In this document: positions 27,399 through 35,937 of the stretch, piece by piece | Numbering within the stretch: the stretch's first letter is position 1 | Layout of the letters: each line of letters starts with the position of its first letter | DNA from: a virus | Lineage: Duplodnaviria > Caudoviricetes | DNA length: 38,259 bases | Reading direction: 5' to 3' (one strand) | IMG/VR virus record: IMGVR_UViG_3300037276_000069 | Coordinates: 1-38,259 of that record | Notes under the pieces: model-generated | What the model was told of the DNA's origin: nothing | What the model saw: only the letters and a program-made list of their open reading frames with translations | The model's database searches: none | Translations under genes and position numbers: made by a program

Positions 27399-27536
27399 TG
27401 ACAAAGTGCAGCAATGACGCACAGTTACGTCACACCGCGCCGCAAACCCCAAAGCCCTCACAACGTAGCCGCTGACCATTATGGCACTAGAGTCTTATAA
27501 ACCATAGCGTGTCCTTTTTCCCTTGACAATCTGCGT

Positions 27537-27552
27537 TGGCACGAGAATTGCC
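27537..27552 (+). promoter_or_regulatory. Sigma54 (-24/-12) promoter candidate facing the early genes
   Basis: TGGCACGAGAATTGCC, a near-perfect consensus with exact GG-N10-GC spacing. Confidence 0.7.
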
Positions 27553-27615
27553 TGATTTTGACTAAAAGACAAAGTGAGACGCGGTGCGACCGGAATGTGT
27601 GTGCGTATGTATTTC

Positions 27616-27638
27616 TTTTTTTTTTTTTTTTTTTTTTT
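27616..27638 (+). repeat. T23 homopolymer
   Basis: 23 consecutive T in the divergent intergenic region. Confidence 0.9.
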
Positions 27639-27794
27639 ACACTATGTGTCACACTCACCACAACCGGCGCGACGCACTGCATTAGCCACGGCGCGCACTC
27701 AAAAGAACATGCTACAGTTTATAGTAGCCTAGTGCCATAAGAGCGTGTAATAGGTATATAATTGATTTGAGGTTACAGCCTTACAGGAGGACAT

Positions 27795-30862: not shown

Positions 30863-31161
30863 GTAAGGAGTCGAAACGGAGGGGCGTAGTCATCCGCGTC
30901 AGTCGTGAAGTCGAAGTCTTCCTCAGGGCGAAGCAGCGTAAGGTTGAGACTTACGATGCACTGCTTCGCAGGTTCTTCGGCCTCCCTACGAAAAAAGGGA
31001 AAGAGCAGCCCCTGCGTACCTTCTATGTCATCCCGGACGAGAGTCACGCGCCACTCTGTTTCACTTCAGCGGCTGTCGCTAAAGGGGAGGCCGTAAGACA
31101 GGCAGTGAGGGCGGGAACGAAGAAGGTTACGAAGGTAATTACTGTTAGAGAGGCTGTGTGA
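30859..31161 (+). CDS. Ribbon-helix-helix-like DNA-binding protein
   Basis: VVIRVSREVEVFLRAK...ETYDALLRRFFG fits the RHH/antitoxin-like pattern; ATG at 30859. Confidence 0.6.
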   Translation: MSKESKRRGVVIRVSREVEVFLRAKQRKVETYDALLRRFFGLPTKKGKEQPLRTFYVIPDESHAPLCFTSAAVAKGEAVRQAVRAGTKKVTKVITVREAV

Positions 31162-31222
31162 GGAATTTATGGAAGCATATGTAATCATGGGACCATCAGC
31201 AGACTAAGCGGAAGGATGGGGA

Positions 31223-31453
31223 ATGAGTACTGAACCAACTGTATGGCGAATTATGCATCCTGATCTTGGTGGTCCTTTGGACGTGGTTGCTGCCTCGGAA
31301 TATAAAAAGATTCGAGAACTATTGGAGCGCGCTTGTAGCACAGTCGTAACTCACGCGATGCAGACCTATTCAAAAGCGGATTCCAAACACTCAAATAATT
31401 TGGCGCAAGAAATTCACGAGGCATTGGGATACGGCAACGGCGACGGCTATTAA
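31223..31453 (+). CDS. Hypothetical protein
   Basis: 76 aa at the start of a more AT-rich accessory block. Confidence 0.5.
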   Translation: MSTEPTVWRIMHPDLGGPLDVVAASEYKKIRELLERACSTVVTHAMQTYSKADSKHSNNLAQEIHEALGYGNGDGY

Positions 31454-31498
31454 TATGCTTAGTCCAAGCACGAACACCAAGCAAACAGAGGAGAAATA

Positions 31499-32179
31499 AT
31501 GCAAGCATTTCACAATAAATCAGAAATTCAAAAAGAATATCTGGACAGAGTTATAGCCCACTCAAAAGCCGATGAGATTATAAAAGGCAAGTATTGGGAA
31601 GACGGCAAGGGCTGTGCTGTTGGATGTACCGTTCATTCCTCTAGCCATAGAGCCTATGAAACAGAACTTGGCATCCCGATGTGGCTGGCCAGAATGGAAG
31701 ATCGAATATTTGAAGGACTTCCGAGTGCAAGGGCAAAAAAATTTCCGTTAGAATTTTTGAGTGCTGTTAATCTTGGAGCGGATTTAGAAAAGATCAAAAT
31801 TCCAATGCTTATTTTCATTTTAGAATCTGCGCGAACCCATACTAAAAACGAGCGTTCATTAAAAGCAATTGATGGCGTTCTTTTGCAATTACGTAAAGAT
31901 GTTTTAGATTTGCCGGCCTTGCGCGAAGCGCGGGCTGCTGCTTATGATGCTGCTGTTTATGATGCTTCTGCTGCTGCTGCTGCTTATGCTTATGCTGCTG
32001 CTTATGATGCTTATGCTTATGCTTCTGCTGCTGCTGCTGCTTATGCTTATGCTTCTGCTGCTGCTGCTGCTGCTGATGCTGCTGCTTATGCTGCTGCTTA
32101 TGCTGCTGATGCTGCTCGCGAAAACGAATATACAAAATTTGCTGATAAATTACTAGAGTTAATTCATGCGTGCAAATAG
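31499..32179 (+). CDS. Hypothetical protein with Ala/Tyr/Asp low-complexity repeat
   Basis: GAGGAG RBS; ordered N-domain (GKGCAVGC, LGIP-x-WLA, IFEGLP) plus a 61-codon Ala-rich tract. Confidence 0.8.
   Translation: MQAFHNKSEIQKEYLDRVIAHSKADEIIKGKYWEDGKGCAVGCTVHSSSHRAYETELGIPMWLARMEDRIFEGLPSARAKKFPLEFLSAVNLGADLEKIKIPMLIFILESARTHTKNERSLKAIDGVLLQLRKDVLDLPALREARAAAYDAAVYDASAAAAAYAYAAAYDAYAYASAAAAAYAYASAAAAAADAAAYAAAYAADAARENEYTKFADKLLELIHACK
31934..32116 (+). repeat. GCT/TAT/GAT trinucleotide low-complexity coding repeat
   Basis: 61 consecutive codons drawn only from GCT, TAT, GAT, TCT and GTT. Confidence 0.9.
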
Positions 32180-32197
32180 TCATAATGGTAGTACCAA

Positions 32198-32503
32198 GTG
32201 ATGAGCAAAAATAGTCCTAATCCGAAAACTGCGACCGAAAAATCACTCGACGAAAGCTTGGCTGAGCTTGAGATAAAAGCCGACCTTTGGCAAGGCATAG
32301 TGACGCATCCAAATTTCATACGTCCAATGAAGGACCTAATCGCCGCACTCCAATTGTGCCGCAAGCAGCGAGAGGAATTGGCAGAATTAATGGATTTGCA
32401 AAAAGAAATTCGACTTAGGATAATTGGCTACAATGACCAAGCCCTCGCGGAACTGTTGACCGAGGGCAATCCAAGTGAGACTAGCACAAAGGGGACAAAG
32501 TGA
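32198..32503 (+). CDS. Hypothetical protein
   Basis: 101 aa helical ORF. Confidence 0.55.
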   Translation: MMSKNSPNPKTATEKSLDESLAELEIKADLWQGIVTHPNFIRPMKDLIAALQLCRKQREELAELMDLQKEIRLRIIGYNDQALAELLTEGNPSETSTKGTK

Positions 32504-32550
32504 AGCCTAGACCTATGTTAAGATGGCACGGCGGTAAATGGATCAAATGA
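32500..32550 (+). pseudogene. 16-codon relic of a Dam-family (D12 class) adenine methyltransferase N-terminus
   Basis: GTG...TGA translates to MKPRPMLRWHGGKWIK*, matching the P-x-L-R/K-W/Y-x-GGK start of Dam-type MTases; coupled to the upstream stop. Confidence 0.6.
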
Positions 32551-32717
32551 AAGGTAGTCCCACAAGAACTAGCGAAGCGAGTGTATCGAGTTACGCGAGC
32601 CGGTTTTCAGGTGTCGCGCAAGAATATGCTGCTAAATCTGCTGAATATGCTGCTGAATATTGCGAAAAAATAATTACTTTATGTCTCGAATGCATTGAGG
32701 CGGTCTGCAATGTCTAA
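32547..32717 (+). CDS. Small or chimeric ORF with an Ala-rich repeat remnant
   Basis: 56 aa containing EYAAKSAEYAAEY; below the ORF-track cutoff; start overlaps the previous stop. Confidence 0.35.
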   Translation: MKGSPTRTSEASVSSYASRFSGVAQEYAAKSAEYAAEYCEKIITLCLECIEAVCNV

Positions 32718-32788
32718 ACTATCTCTAATCACCGTATTAGTATTGGCAGTCCCCAACCGACTGACAATAAGGAAACTAAATGAATAAC

Positions 32789-32900
32789 GGGCCAGTAGCT
32801 CAGCAGAAGAGTATCCGGGCGCTGATCACGCTAACATGCGACCTTCTAGACTCGCATGTAAAACGGAAGGACGGCAGTGCAACTCTGTCCTGGTCCACCA
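32789..32900 (+). ncRNA. tRNA-like RNA with expanded, bifurcated anticodon arm
   Basis: Acceptor GGGCCAG/CTGGTCC plus ACCA; D arm GCTC/GAGT; T arm GGCAG-TGCAACT-CTGTC; variable loop AGGAC; anticodon stem TCCG/CGGA encloses 46 nt with two hairpins. Confidence 0.8.
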
Positions 32901-32933
32901 ATTATCTACCCCAACCGATTGAACGAGGTGAGA

Positions 32934-33173
32934 ATGAAATACGGATGGGAAATAGCAGACGAAGTGCAGCGGTTCGCTAGCGGGTCCGCTGACATGAAAT
33001 TTGTCCCAGCTACCGTGCATGAAGAGTTGCAGAACCGATTCGACAACTTAAAAGCGAAGCTCGTTGCACAAGATAGAATATTTTCTAAAAGCGTAGTGGT
33101 CCCGACTGAAGATTATGCGGAGCTGACCGCTGAGCACAATAAACTTAATGCAAAAGTAATATTTCACAAATAA
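32934..33173 (+). CDS. Hypothetical coiled-coil protein
   Basis: GAGGTG RBS before ATG 32934. Confidence 0.5.
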   Translation: MKYGWEIADEVQRFASGSADMKFVPATVHEELQNRFDNLKAKLVAQDRIFSKSVVVPTEDYAELTAEHNKLNAKVIFHK

Positions 33174-33244
33174 CATTAAGGCAGACTTGGGAATGGCTTC
33201 CTGATGACAGTCGTAGGAGGACGGACACATGAGCAAGATTCAAG

Positions 33245-33649
33245 ATGGTCGTTAAGCTTACGCGCCTTCATCTGAGCTCGCAGGGTATCTTCGGGAAGCT
33301 TGAATTAGCCGACCGTGAGTTCGTCTCCCTCGAGCATGCTTATCTTACTTCCCTCGACACCTATTCCCCAAAGCTAGCCAAGGGAACTTACACTTGCGTC
33401 CGTCATGCACCTCACCGCCTCCCGTACGAAACCTGGGAAGTAACTGGAGTCCCTGACTTCGAGGGTCAGTCCGTAGAGGCTATACTAATCCACATAGGAA
33501 ACTTCCAGGAGGACTCCGAGGGCTGTATCCTCGTAGGAACCTCCCGCAGCCTCGACAATCCGGAAATGATCAAGGGTTCTCGCGCCGCATTTCGTGACCT
33601 AATGATTTTGACTTCCGAGGAGTCGGAACTTACTCTCGTCGTTATTTAG
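33245..33649 (+). CDS. DUF5675-family protein, candidate endolysin
   Basis: LTR...IFGKL...SLE...GTY...ILIHIGN-x3-DSEGCILVG signature with a His/Cys pair reminiscent of L,D-transpeptidase folds; I recognised no other lysin. Confidence 0.75.
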   Translation: MVVKLTRLHLSSQGIFGKLELADREFVSLEHAYLTSLDTYSPKLAKGTYTCVRHAPHRLPYETWEVTGVPDFEGQSVEAILIHIGNFQEDSEGCILVGTSRSLDNPEMIKGSRAAFRDLMILTSEESELTLVVI

Positions 33650-33668
33650 GTAACCACAGGGGGTCTCT

Positions 33669-34376
33669 TTGCGCGTACTCGTATGTACTCCGGCATTCGG
33701 CGGTCAAGTCACAGTCTCTTACATGCTATCCTTCCTCAACTGCGCATCGAAGGCCCAGGCCGAGGGGATTCAGCTGGGGATCTTTACGGTGAGTAATGAG
33801 TCTCTCGTCCCACGCGCTCGAAACTACATAATCTCCTCTTCCCTACAGTCCGAGGTCCCTTGGGACAAGTTCCTCTTCATCGACGCGGACATTCAGTTCT
33901 CCTGGGAGGACGTTAAGCGGTTACTTAGTTCGGGTGAGCAGATTGTCGGAGGGGCATACCCCGTGAAGGCCCTTCCGATTCACCTGAACTACAATCCGAA
34001 GTTCGGAGACGGCCTAAAGTACTTCCCGGACGGACGCAGATCCGTAGCGCAGCATGAGGCCTTTGCAGCGGAGGAAGCGACCTCAGACGGTGAGGCAGAG
34101 GTGAGACACCTTGCGACAGGGTTCCTCCTGATTGACCGCTCAGTCTTCGAGGTCTTACGCCCGAAAGTTCCAAGCTATGTCAATCAGGATATCGTAACGA
34201 AACAGGAAGTTACGAACTGGGACTTCTTCCCGGCCGGCGTCTCTGAGAATCATTACATGAGTGAGGACTGGGGCTTCTGTAACTTAGCCCGCGCGCACGG
34301 CTTTCATATCTACCTAAATACTAAAGTCATAGTTGGCCACGTTGGAAGCCACACTTACCGTCCGGAGCCTAAATGA
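33669..34376 (+). CDS. GT-A fold (GT2-like) glycosyltransferase
   Basis: VCTPAFGG, ESLVPRARN, FLFIDADI (DxD), ATGFLLIDR, SEDWGFC, GHVG. Confidence 0.85.
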   Translation: MRVLVCTPAFGGQVTVSYMLSFLNCASKAQAEGIQLGIFTVSNESLVPRARNYIISSSLQSEVPWDKFLFIDADIQFSWEDVKRLLSSGEQIVGGAYPVKALPIHLNYNPKFGDGLKYFPDGRRSVAQHEAFAAEEATSDGEAEVRHLATGFLLIDRSVFEVLRPKVPSYVNQDIVTKQEVTNWDFFPAGVSENHYMSEDWGFCNLARAHGFHIYLNTKVIVGHVGSHTYRPEPK

Positions 34377-34576
34377 GTCAGGACTCACAGAAGATCATCC
34401 ATGATACGGCAATGGGATTCGCCTTAGCTAACCCACTACTTAAGACCCCCGAAGAGCAGAGAGCTGCAGTCGAAGGCTTCCTTAACGGAGTCCATTGGGC
34501 ATTTAAGGTAGTAATAACGAGCACGGAGAAGTGGACTAATGACGCACCAGCAGAACATCCCCCTACTGAGTCCTAA
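34373..34576 (+). CDS. Hypothetical protein
   Basis: 67 aa, ATGA-coupled. Confidence 0.5.
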   Translation: MSQDSQKIIHDTAMGFALANPLLKTPEEQRAAVEGFLNGVHWAFKVVITSTEKWTNDAPAEHPPTES

Positions 34577-34904
34577 GCCCTTCGGTGAGTACTCACCTGA
34601 GGAGTTCCGAACTTACGTTCAGTCCCTTTACAAGGAGCCGGTCCGATCAGTTCCTAAGGAATTCTCAGCCTCCCTTACGAAGAAGGGGACTCTTACCCTC
34701 AGGGTCACACGAGACCCTAAGTTCCTAGAGCCGAAAGAAGTCGACGCCATAGCTGAATCCATAGGATGGACGAAGCAGGAGACTTGGCTCGCAGTTATTA
34801 AACGGAAGATTACGATAAGGAGATCAAATGTCGCAGGGAGTAAGACCCGATCCAACACCCGTCAACCAGTCCGCTACGGACCTACCCGTCCGGCAGCGAA
34901 GTGA
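34539..34904 (+). CDS. Hypothetical basic protein
   Basis: 121 aa overlapping both neighbours. Confidence 0.5.
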   Translation: MTHQQNIPLLSPKPFGEYSPEEFRTYVQSLYKEPVRSVPKEFSASLTKKGTLTLRVTRDPKFLEPKEVDAIAESIGWTKQETWLAVIKRKITIRRSNVAGSKTRSNTRQPVRYGPTRPAAK

Positions 34905-35937
34905 GGTCGGAACTTACGGACCCACTCACCATTGGAGAGAAGGAACGAAAGTCCGTCACACGGACATTAAGTTCCTCCTAAACTCAGGAGGAATGGGCGA
35001 TTATGTCAACTACACGACAGCCCTCCTCTGGGTAGCGCAGAACCTCCCCTGGGTCCACGGCCAGATCTACGTGAGTTCCTTCTTCATGGACTTCCTGGAG
35101 GTGATCTTCCGGGATTACCCGAAGTGGTCAGTTCATGATGGATCTGCGATCAGGATCGAACCCCATGACTGTTTCATAGGTCCGGAGATTCAGATGGAAG
35201 GTCAGAACATCACAAGGCAGCTCGCCAATGCGACAGGAGCTCACCTCATGGACCTAGGCTTCCAGTACTATACGAATCAACAGGCCGCCCCTCCCGGAGT
35301 CATGCTCCCCCGCCTCCCCGCGACAAGACCCCAGAAGGTTCATTGGGAAGTTAGACCTCACCTAGGCAAGTATGTCGTCTTTACTCCGGGCTCCGTCGTC
35401 CCTGCCCGTGCGACAACGGCAAAGCACCTTAACCCCCTGATCGAATTCTGCGTAAGTCAGGGTCTGACCCCCGTCTTCCTAGGCAAGAACAACTTTGCAC
35501 AGGGAATGAAAGTTAACTTCGATGAGGGTATCCGCTTCGACCTAGGCATAGACCTTCGGGATAAGACTACGATCCTTCAGGCCGCCTCCGTAATGGAGCA
35601 TGCGGTCTGCGTCCTCGGACTCGATAACGGACTTCTTCACCTAGCTGCAGCAACGGATGCTAACGTAATCTTCGGCTATAACATTACGACTATAGCGCAG
35701 AGAGTTCCGCGAAGGAACTGGGGTGAGACCCTTAATCTAGCACTAACTCCTCAAGAACTAGCCTGCACAGCCTGTCAGGCGAACGGGAAGCTTATGATTA
35801 ATCACACTTATCACAAGTGTTATTACGGAGATACGAAGTGTATAGACCTCCTCTTCTCAGGAGGAAGGTTTGAGAAAGCAGTAACCTATTTCAAGGAGAA
35901 GCAAGATGCCATTCAAATCGGAAGCGCAGCGTCGTAA
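34828..35937 (+). CDS. GT-B fold, GT9 (heptosyltransferase-like) glycosyltransferase
   Basis: GGMGD N-terminal motif and DLRDKTTILQAASVM...LGLDNGLLHLAAA, matching the GT9 D-S/N-G-x-x-H-L-A-A motif. Confidence 0.82.
   Translation: MSQGVRPDPTPVNQSATDLPVRQRSEVGTYGPTHHWREGTKVRHTDIKFLLNSGGMGDYVNYTTALLWVAQNLPWVHGQIYVSSFFMDFLEVIFRDYPKWSVHDGSAIRIEPHDCFIGPEIQMEGQNITRQLANATGAHLMDLGFQYYTNQQAAPPGVMLPRLPATRPQKVHWEVRPHLGKYVVFTPGSVVPARATTAKHLNPLIEFCVSQGLTPVFLGKNNFAQGMKVNFDEGIRFDLGIDLRDKTTILQAASVMEHAVCVLGLDNGLLHLAAATDANVIFGYNITTIAQRVPRRNWGETLNLALTPQELACTACQANGKLMINHTYHKCYYGDTKCIDLLFSGGRFEKAVTYFKEKQDAIQIGSAAS

What the first reader, a model, noticed from the sequence alone, without database searches (positions are those of the whole stretch)
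32789..32900. tRNA-shaped RNA with a two-hairpin anticodon arm (GAU-like and amber CUA-like loops)
Seen: an intact tRNA core, with a 7-bp acceptor stem plus encoded ACCA, U8-A9, a D arm, variable loop AGGAC and a T arm (loop TGCAACT). The anticodon stem TCCG (32814-17)/CGGA (32864-67) closes a three-way junction instead of a 7-nt loop. Hairpin 1 is GGCG-CTGATCA-CGCT, whose 7-nt loop reads CU-GAU-CA (Ile-like, non-canonical C37). Hairpin 2 is ACATGCGA-CCTTCTAGAC-TCGCATGT, a perfect 8-bp stem whose loop contains UU-CUA-GA (amber-type loop). The 3' end of the insert (AT-GTA-AA) could also give a Tyr loop if part of the insert were removed. Inference: ordinary decay would not keep every core pair and build new perfect stems. 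Possible roles are a tRNA mimic or decoy for anticodon nucleases (PrrC, VapC, PARIS types), a synthetase or uncharged-tRNA-sensor decoy, an RNase P processing element, or a spliced precursor.
Basis: partly seen in the sequence, partly recalled or inferred. Interest (0 to 1): 0.85.

Follow-up and report, generated by a model that had tools for sequence, protein, structure and literature searches.

The report
Alanine-marked phage tRNA look-alike, two hairpins
A small peat phage carries one 112-base tRNA-shaped gene that keeps the tRNA body and the main marks for loading alanine but has two hairpins in place of the codon-reading loop, so it likely cannot decode and likely serves as a tRNA decoy or carrier; similar look-alikes with unrelated inserts recur in other phages.

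Summary
The structure is real. Window 32789-32900 is a tRNA body (Rfam 37.9 bits) whose 4-bp anticodon stem encloses a 46-nt two-hairpin insert (z -2.8). The acceptor carries the alanine set G1-C72, G2-C71, G3.U70, A73 (60 of 62 Ala tRNAs, 4 of 825 others). The elbow has an A18/G55 double swap also seen in canonical-looking tRNA genes, which argues against decay. No single excision restores a normal arm (0 of 18 registers), and TAG remains a stop, so splicing and amber suppression are unsupported. The 'anticodon-like' loops are post hoc: both also hold 6-nt palindromes at similar odds. A 98%-identical copy sits between unrelated flanks in another metagenome. No diverged homologue was found, so covariation of the insert is untested. 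Long-arm tRNA look-alikes are common in phage contigs (66 distinct in a partial scan), and this scan has noted similar RNAs on other DNA, though not this sequence. Best reading: a non-decoding RNA, predicted to be host-processed and alanylated, acting as a decoy (0.4). New variant of a loosely known kind.

The parts
32789..32900 (+). tRNA-shaped RNA gene, 112 nt, encoded CCA; the only tRNA-like gene in this 38-kb phage record
32789..32795 (+). 5' strand of acceptor stem (G1 G2 G3 C4)
32890..32900 (+). 3' strand of acceptor stem (G69 U70 C71 C72), discriminator A73 and CCA; alanine identity set with G3.U70
32798..32812 (+). D arm; loop has A18-G19 (32805-06) instead of G18-G19
32814..32867 (+). 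remodelled anticodon arm: 4-bp outer stem (32814-17/32864-67) closing a 46-nt three-way junction
32818..32832 (+). hairpin 1, 4 bp, 7-nt loop CUGAUCA (Ile-like word with C37; contains palindrome UGAUCA); flush with the outer stem
32834..32859 (+). hairpin 2, 8 Watson-Crick bp, 10-nt loop CCUUCUAGAC (contains palindrome UCUAGA)
32873..32889 (+). T arm; loop U54 G55 C56 A57 A58, with G55 accompanying A18
32741..32769 (+). leader hairpin, shared from 32743 with the second copy in run X10; role unknown
32751..32764 (+). 14-nt direct repeat, upstream copy
32909..32922 (+). 14-nt direct repeat, downstream copy (one mismatch); the two copies bracket a 158-bp segment holding the RNA gene

Best explanation
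The phage encodes a 112-nt RNA with an intact tRNA body, the main alanine identity marks and a two-hairpin module in place of the anticodon loop; it is predicted to be cut out by host tRNA-processing enzymes and loaded with alanine, likely cannot decode, and most likely acts as a decoy that occupies host tRNA-binding or tRNA-attacking proteins during infection. Steps: (1) shown: body, identity marks, insert fold, no single-cut route to a normal arm, and a near-identical copy between other flanks. (2) Inferred from established knowledge: transcription within the co-oriented early/middle gene run; 5' maturation by RNase P and 3' trimming to the encoded CCA, as for engineered tRNA scaffolds with cargo in the anticodon stem; charging by AlaRS, which has no anticodon determinant. 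(3) Inferred from geometry: hairpin 1 would stack on the 4-bp outer stem to give an 8-bp arm with a second hairpin beside it, which would not fit a decoding site. (4) Hypothesis only: the mature RNA titrates a host factor that reads the elbow, the acceptor end or anticodon-like loops (a tRNA nuclease or modifying toxin, or AlaRS/EF-Tu). My odds: maintained non-decoding mimic about 0.75; alanylated if expressed about 0.7; decoy as its job about 0.4.
For: Body. Tertiary letters U8, A9, A14, G15, G19, A21, G46, C48, U54, C56, A58 are kept. G55 goes with loss of the D-loop GG in 9 of 11 tRNAs, against 26 of 862 with U55 (Fisher p 5e-12; relatedness not modelled, but the nine span different isotypes). 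Alanine set: 60 of 62 Ala against 4 of 825 non-Ala tRNAs. PMC9976931 (passages) lists A73, G2-C71, G3.U70, G4-C69 and G20, with no anticodon element. PMC5389517 (section 15): non-canonical allo-tRNAs with G3:U70, given an amber anticodon, inserted mainly Ala and Ser in E. coli. PMC3753655 (passages): tRNA bodies with cargo in the anticodon arm are recognised by E. coli factors and expressed. Non-decoding: 0 of 18 registers. Moves as a unit: a 606-nt contig of run X10 matches 32743-32901 at 156 of 159 and diverges one base after the CCA. Recurrence of the design: 8 other viral RNAs with the alanine acceptor and a non-restorable arm.
Against: No diverged homologue of the insert was found, so selection on the two hairpins rests on one sequence. 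The closest sampled relative (major capsid protein 85% identical) lacks the RNA and the whole surrounding 2.5-kb block. Alanine identity is not enriched among long-arm phage RNAs: 0 of 66, against 21 of 712 canonical tRNAs (p 0.25). The nearest sampled scaffold is an Ile tRNA, only one point above Ala, Met and Thr, so G3.U70 could be one tolerated transition. Two minor alanine determinants (G4-C69, G20) are absent. Nothing in the data points to a specific host target. The PARIS precedent (PMC11455837, passages) is a working, cleavage-resistant phage tRNA, not a decoy.
Confidence: 0.4

Rival explanations
1. The tRNA body is only a chassis for processing and stability; the two-hairpin insert is the working part, binding a phage or host protein or dimerising through its self-complementary loops.
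For: Insert more structured than shuffles. Both loops hold 6-nt palindromes, chance 0.08-0.18%. Many phage tRNA bodies carry unrelated folded inserts. Engineered precedent in PMC3753655.
Against: The palindrome pattern is post hoc. An antisense version finds no target above chance: the longest complement in the genome is 11 nt, and 72 of 200 shuffles reach 11 or more. No homologues to show a conserved loop.
Confidence: 0.2
2. A recently acquired, neutral or decaying relic of a tRNA gene with a chance-folded insertion.
For: Absent from the 7 terminase-related records searched and from the syntenic place in G002. The only other copy is 98% identical, too close to show selection. Flanked by a 14-nt direct repeat, as after an insertion.
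Against: All 20 core pairs are intact although the body scores only 44 of 63 against the nearest sampled tRNA. Paired A18/G55 swap. An 8-bp stem is rare in shuffles. The shared stretch ends one base after the CCA.
Confidence: 0.15
3. A processing signal: RNase P and 3' nucleases cut around the tRNA shape and so split or stabilise the polycistronic message between the upstream genes and the gene starting at 32934.
For: It lies on the coding strand between co-oriented genes, with no terminator-like site on that strand in 31000-34500. It has an RNase P-type top half with encoded ACCA (sequence; enzyme requirements recalled).
Against: Does not explain the structured insert or the alanine marks. 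The neighbours differ in the second copy.
Confidence: 0.1
4. A dedicated alanine donor for a non-ribosomal aminoacyl transferase that decorates a cell-surface or phage glycan.
For: Alanine acceptor without a usable anticodon. Glycosyltransferase-like genes lie 0.8-3 kb downstream.
Against: No Fem, MprF or GNAT family hit among 56 phage ORFs. G002 and G004 have relatives of the sugar gene(s) but no such RNA. 0 descriptor hits in 80 loci around relatives of the 33723 gene.
Confidence: 0.07
5. An intron-bearing precursor that is spliced to a working tRNA, like the 'enigmatic' Lak phage tRNA introns.
For: 30 of 66 long-arm viral RNAs can be restored by one excision. An Ala loop word (CU-CGC-AU) lies in the 3' strand of hairpin 2, matching the acceptor (sequence).
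Against: 0 of 18 registers pass here. The Ala word occurs in 11.7% of shuffles and has no flanking stem. No ligase or endonuclease family for RNA among the 56 ORFs scanned.
Confidence: 0.06
6. The stretch is a protein gene (66-aa ORF 32780-32980) and the tRNA shape is incidental.
For: Open frame across the element with a Shine-Dalgarno-like AAGGA upstream.
Against: Only its own sequence is found among 5.8 billion proteins of near length. It overlaps the next gene out of frame. The X10 copy diverges at 32901, mid-ORF. The chance of the cloverleaf is negligible.
Confidence: 0.02

Closest known systems
'Enigmatic' intron-bearing tRNA genes of Lak megaphages (Devoto et al., bioRxiv 10.1101/356790; passages read; supplementary Table S6 not seen)
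   Same: Phage tRNA gene longer than normal, with extra sequence in the anticodon region; not classed by standard tools.
   Different: Those were assigned an isotype after removing one intron, and some have intron-less alleles; here no single cut restores an arm. Here it is a lone gene in a 38-kb phage, not part of a tRNA array in a >540-kb phage.
tRNA-Ala (Rfam RF00005) and its identity set (PMC9976931, passages)
   Same: G1-C72, G2-C71, G3.U70, A73, CCA, 7/5 acceptor/T branch, D arm, 5-nt variable loop.
   Different: No 5-bp stem with a 7-nt anticodon loop; C4-G69 and A20 instead of G4-C69 and G20; A18/G55.
allo-tRNAs and irregular tRNAs of Acidobacteria and soil or peat metagenomes (Mukai et al., PMC5389517; sections 15 and 16 read; supplements not read)
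   Same: Non-canonical tRNA shapes, some with G3:U70, some proposed to be charged but not used in translation.
   Different: Allo-tRNAs are defined by an 8/4 or 9/3 branch and keep an anticodon loop; this RNA is 7/5 and has a junction instead of the loop.
tmRNA tRNA-like domain; TLD-only ssrA of mycobacteriophage DS6A (PMC4131195, passages)
   Same: Alanine-type acceptor on a non-decoding RNA; a phage precedent for which titration of a host factor (SmpB) was suggested.
   Different: It has a full D stem, which TLDs lack (recalled); no tag frame or pseudoknots; no tmRNA family hit near its cut-off.
Engineered tRNA scaffold (PMC3753655, passages)
   Same: Same architecture: acceptor, D and T arms kept, cargo grafted on a shortened anticodon stem.
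   Different: That is a laboratory construct; this is natural, and its cargo has no known function.
T4 RNAC and RNAD stable RNAs (NC_000866 annotation; PMC3014915, one passage)
   Same: Phage non-coding RNAs of 120-140 nt from a tRNA region, roles unknown; RNAC has a T-arm-like hairpin near its 3' end.
   Different: Neither reaches an Rfam tRNA hit, and RNAD does not form a 7-bp acceptor with T arm in my test; no sign of homology.

Membership tests
canonical tRNA (RF00005) | 7-bp acceptor, D arm, 5-bp T stem with 7-nt loop, CCA | tested here: met
   the T-stem register is disfavoured in the 2D ensemble
canonical tRNA (RF00005) | 5-bp anticodon stem with 7-nt loop, Y32-U33, purine 37 | tested here: not met
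   4-bp stem closing 46 nt
tRNA-Ala identity | G3.U70, G1-C72, G2-C71, A73 | tested here: met
tRNA-Ala identity | minor determinants G4-C69 and G20 | tested here: not met
   C4-G69 and A20; 23 of 62 sampled Ala tRNAs also start GGGC
tRNA-Ala identity | alanylation by AlaRS | not testable with these tools
   needs an aminoacylation assay
intron-bearing phage tRNA (Lak type) | one excision restores a canonical anticodon arm | tested here: not met
   0 of 18 registers; the test passes 30 of 66 other viral RNAs and fails this one
intron-bearing phage tRNA (Lak type) | intron-less allele of the same gene exists | tested here: inconclusive
   none; searches are incomplete
amber suppressor tRNA | CUA centred in a 7-nt loop, and TAG recoding in the genome | tested here: not met
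   10-nt loop; TAG ends 7 of 49 genes
tmRNA / TLD-only RNA | no D stem; tag reading frame with pseudoknots (features recalled) | tested here: not met
   4-bp D stem present; best tmRNA-type hit 11.9 bits against cut-off 47
allo-tRNA | 8/4 or 9/3 acceptor/T branch | tested here: not met
   7/5 branch
C4-type antisense RNA | loops complementary to target sites in the phage's own transcripts; Rfam family hit | tested here: not met
   complementarity at chance level; no such Rfam hit
Acidobacteriota alanine-acceptor long-loop RNAs (group seen here) | scores like members on model R1; ~27-nt loop | tested here: not met
   50 bits, against 91-93 for two training members and up to 77 for ordinary tRNAs
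anti-defence tRNA decoy (hypothetical) | binds or is cut by a host tRNA-targeting protein and protects translation | not testable with these tools
   host and target unknown

The most novel reading that the evidence does not exclude
A phage-made, alanine-charged tRNA decoy that carries two bait hairpins on a natural tRNA scaffold and travels between phages as a stand-alone cassette, one of an undescribed group of lone alanine-acceptor, non-decoding RNAs in small and mid-sized phages that neutralise host tRNA-targeting defence by titration instead of by replacing the cut tRNA.
Probability: 0.15. Interest if true: 0.8.

Novelty: new variant of a known kind. Interest (0 to 1): 0.42.

Why it matters
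Phage tRNA genes are usually read as supplements or as cleavage-resistant replacements for host tRNAs. RNAs like this cannot be either as encoded, and standard tools miss them (ARAGORN and the fast Rfam scan both did). If it is matured and alanylated, it gives a small, self-contained test of whether phages use tRNA bodies as decoys or cargo carriers, a question left open for the Lak 'enigmatic introns' and the T4 stable RNAs. The interest is tempered because it is one sequence without covariation, and the general design recurs widely.

Tried and rejected
Homologue searches, none giving a diverged copy of the insert: pattern scans of viral contigs (119 loci, 35 of 64 parts scanned, 124 loci, 9 of 64 parts, 14 loci, 32 loci, 21 loci), metagenome contigs (9 loci, all ordinary tRNAs), genome contigs (120 loci, 59 of 64 parts), blastn of 50,697 phage records (best E 2), and the insert pattern in 1 of 523 fetched loci, its own. 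These tools may leave out records very near the window. Related phages: 9 terminase loci; 7 of the 9 records could be searched, and only G006 had tRNA matches, two ordinary ones and a weak fragment; blastn 0 of 5; descriptor 0 hits; Rfam 0 hits in three stretches. The GT9-like protein found no viral relative. No RNA holder listed among 19 runs, which says nothing on expression. Runs X4, X5, X6, X7 and X16 do not cover the element. The promoter and terminator scan was at chance level (5 found, 4.0 expected). Four stop triplets of the insert share one frame (0.6% of shuffles); I rejected a mini-tmRNA reading because the pattern is post hoc, the D stem is intact and the domain is only 46 nt. The pooled loop figures used a loop window off by one base and are replaced. 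The Atlas search of the upstream Ala-rich protein named no family. Relatives of the downstream 79-aa gene were not searched, so loci linked through that gene remain unexamined. Ten paper searches (listings only, except for the papers named) showed no description of this RNA or of a two-hairpin anticodon junction in phages; the library lacks most subscription papers, and the supplements of Devoto et al. and Mukai et al. may hold similar sequences.

Full report
Setting. The window is a 38,259-base phage record, estimated 91% complete. It has a family A DNA polymerase, primase/helicase, exonuclease, Sak4-like annealing protein, terminase, head-tail adaptor and major head protein. The best-matching runs are peat metagenomes. 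The element lies on the coding strand among small unknown ORFs, one base after the stop of a 25-codon ORF (32710-32787) and 33 bases before a 79-aa ORF (32934). The closest relative found, G002 (major head protein 85% identical), joins the homologues of the genes on either side directly and lacks the 2.5-kb block holding the RNA. The host is unknown.

Observation. The described structure is there. Rfam's tRNA model aligns both ends and skips 46 nt (37.9 bits, E 2.5e-6); ARAGORN and the fast Rfam scan find nothing. A cloverleaf descriptor hits once in the window and 0 times in 60 resampled windows. The whole RNA folds at z -2.1 and the insert alone at z -2.8; 0.2% of 2000 shuffles have an 8-bp Watson-Crick stem. 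The inner helices have pair probabilities of 0.87-1.0. The T stem is the weak point in two dimensions: a slipped register is 2.5 kcal/mol better. Contigs of two runs reproduce the sequence exactly (one may be the source).

The body looks maintained. All 20 pairs of the acceptor, D, outer anticodon and T stems form, and the letters of the usual tertiary contacts are kept (contacts recalled). Two conserved letters are changed, G18 to A and U55 to G, and these touch in the tRNA elbow (recalled). ARAGORN called 1,020 distinct tRNAs in the loci fetched up to then; 887 could be parsed and 133 were dropped. Of 11 with G55, 9 lack the D-loop GG, against 26 of 862 with U55 (p 5e-12). The double change is therefore a natural paired swap and not random damage. 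The body is not close to any sampled tRNA: the best score is 44 of 63 to an Ile tRNA, then 43 to Ala, Met and Thr tRNAs, so its parent is unresolved.

Alanine marks. The acceptor has G1-C72, G2-C71, G3.U70 and A73. This set is in 60 of 62 Ala tRNAs and 4 of 825 others (my patterns enriched the sample for Ala, which does not affect the second figure much). A review lists A73, G2-C71, G3.U70, G4-C69 and G20 for bacterial alanine identity, with no anticodon element (PMC9976931, passages); the last two are absent here. Odd-shaped natural tRNAs with G3:U70 inserted mainly Ala and Ser in E. coli (PMC5389517, section 15). Charging is thus predicted, not shown. Against a special role for alanine: 0 of 66 long-arm viral RNAs from an acceptor-blind scan carry the set, against 21 of 712 canonical tRNAs, and a single transition from an Ile-type acceptor would create it.

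It is unlikely to decode or be spliced. Removing 37 nt at any of 18 positions never gives a 5-bp stem with Y32, U33 and purine 37. A slightly looser test passes 30 of 66 other long-arm viral RNAs and fails this one. TAG ends 7 of 49 genes counted, including the polymerase (one ORF was dropped for a frame slip), so the phage is not amber-recoded. Both loops fit YU-NNN-NA (0.3% with genome-drawn loops, 0.8% with pooled letters). Loop 1 fails the purine-37 rule, loop 2 has 10 nt and an equally good UCU register, and both loops also contain self-complementary hexamers (0.18% and 0.08%). These are after-the-fact patterns on one sequence. No antisense target stands above chance.

It moves as a unit. 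In viral-metagenome run X10 a 606-nt contig matches 32743-32901 with 3 differences and no gaps, and has unrelated sequence on both sides, diverging one base after the CCA. The one listed difference (32785) is outside the RNA; the other two are unlisted and probably lie near the ends of the match (inferred from the tool's listing rule), so the insert appears identical. At 98% identity this shows mobility, not selection. In the window a 14-nt direct repeat brackets the gene, and the shared leader folds into a hairpin.

The wider class. The design is common: an acceptor-blind scan estimated about 960 matching viral stretches, and the 124 loci returned hold 66 distinct single RNAs, 36 of them not restorable. 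A scan demanding the alanine acceptor returned 14 viral loci. Four are tandem or chance matches, two are true Ala(UGC) tRNAs with a hairpin intron, and eight have unrelated, non-restorable arms; one of these also has an alternative longer reading that passes. The five of these eight given to ARAGORN have no ordinary tRNA in their loci; the other three sit among tRNAs. In genomes the same pattern shows 11 Acidobacteriota loci with a shorter, different loop; the window RNA is not a member. Earlier notes of this scan describe similar look-alikes on other DNA, none on this sequence or genome; they are leads, not support.

Mechanism and comparison. I commit to a non-decoding RNA, predicted to be matured by host enzymes as engineered scaffolds are (PMC3753655, passages), predicted to accept alanine, and most likely used as a decoy for a host tRNA-binding protein (0.4). 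The chief rivals are a chassis for a functional cargo (0.2) and a neutral relic (0.15). It works like a tRNA mimic but fails a defining feature of canonical tRNA, Lak-type intron tRNA (bioRxiv 10.1101/356790, passages), tmRNA or TLD-only RNA (PMC4131195, passages), allo-tRNA and C4-type antisense RNA. Verdict: a real, apparently undescribed variant of phage tRNA look-alikes; interest 0.42.

Noticed in passing
L376:4001-4096, L392:4001-4097, L394:4001-4097(-), L405, L410, L435, L442, L456, L469, L481, L487 (Acidobacteriota genomes): Eleven 95-101-nt tRNA-shaped RNAs with an alanine acceptor (demanded by the pattern) and a ~27-nt enlarged anticodon loop; 12 of 21 pairs covary. In L392 and L442 a PIN gene and an IS1595 transposase lie on the 3' side, in L394 a transposase, in L405 a weak PIN hit and an antitoxin-like gene. 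It recalls the irregular tRNAs beside toxin-antitoxin genes in PMC5389517 but has a 7/5 branch.
   Followed up: partly
L152, L160, L173, L189, L221, L250, L256, L505, L520, L523 (viral contigs): Phage tRNA genes whose anticodon-loop inserts contain a T-arm-like hairpin; those tested are restorable by one excision. Possibly a recurring intron type.
   Followed up: no
L164, L227, L232, L257 (viral contigs): tRNA genes with a normal anticodon arm plus a second anticodon-like hairpin in the variable region; L227 has a CUA loop.
   Followed up: no
L417:3598-4385, L489:74-711, L426:4001-4258: Runs of several long (100-128 nt) tRNA-like genes in two cyanobacterial genomes and one unclassified genome.
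   Followed up: no
window 31499-32179 and 32538-32717: ORF of a widespread unnamed viral family ending in a low-complexity Ala/Tyr/Asp repeat written almost wholly with GCT codons, 0.6 kb upstream of the RNA; a second short ORF has a similar repeat.
   Followed up: partly
window 27479-27740: 40-nt imperfect inverted repeat around a long T tract, between the divergent structural and early gene blocks; candidate origin or control region.
   Followed up: no
window 33245-35937: DUF5675 gene followed by two glycosyltransferase-like genes (phrog_1574; GT9 family); the glycosyltransferase pair is syntenic in G002.
   Followed up: partly
L124:971-1938 (G003): The terminase match is split by about 1 kb, suggesting an intron or intein.
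   Followed up: no
window 32818-32863: All four stop triplets of the insert (UGA, UAA, UAG, UAA) fall in one frame; 0.6% of shuffles do so; post hoc.
   Followed up: partly
L149, L151, L157, L163, L169, L180, L212, L225, L230 (viral contigs): A much-repeated 109-115-nt tRNA-shaped RNA with a non-restorable middle and an A-tract of varying length.
   Followed up: no
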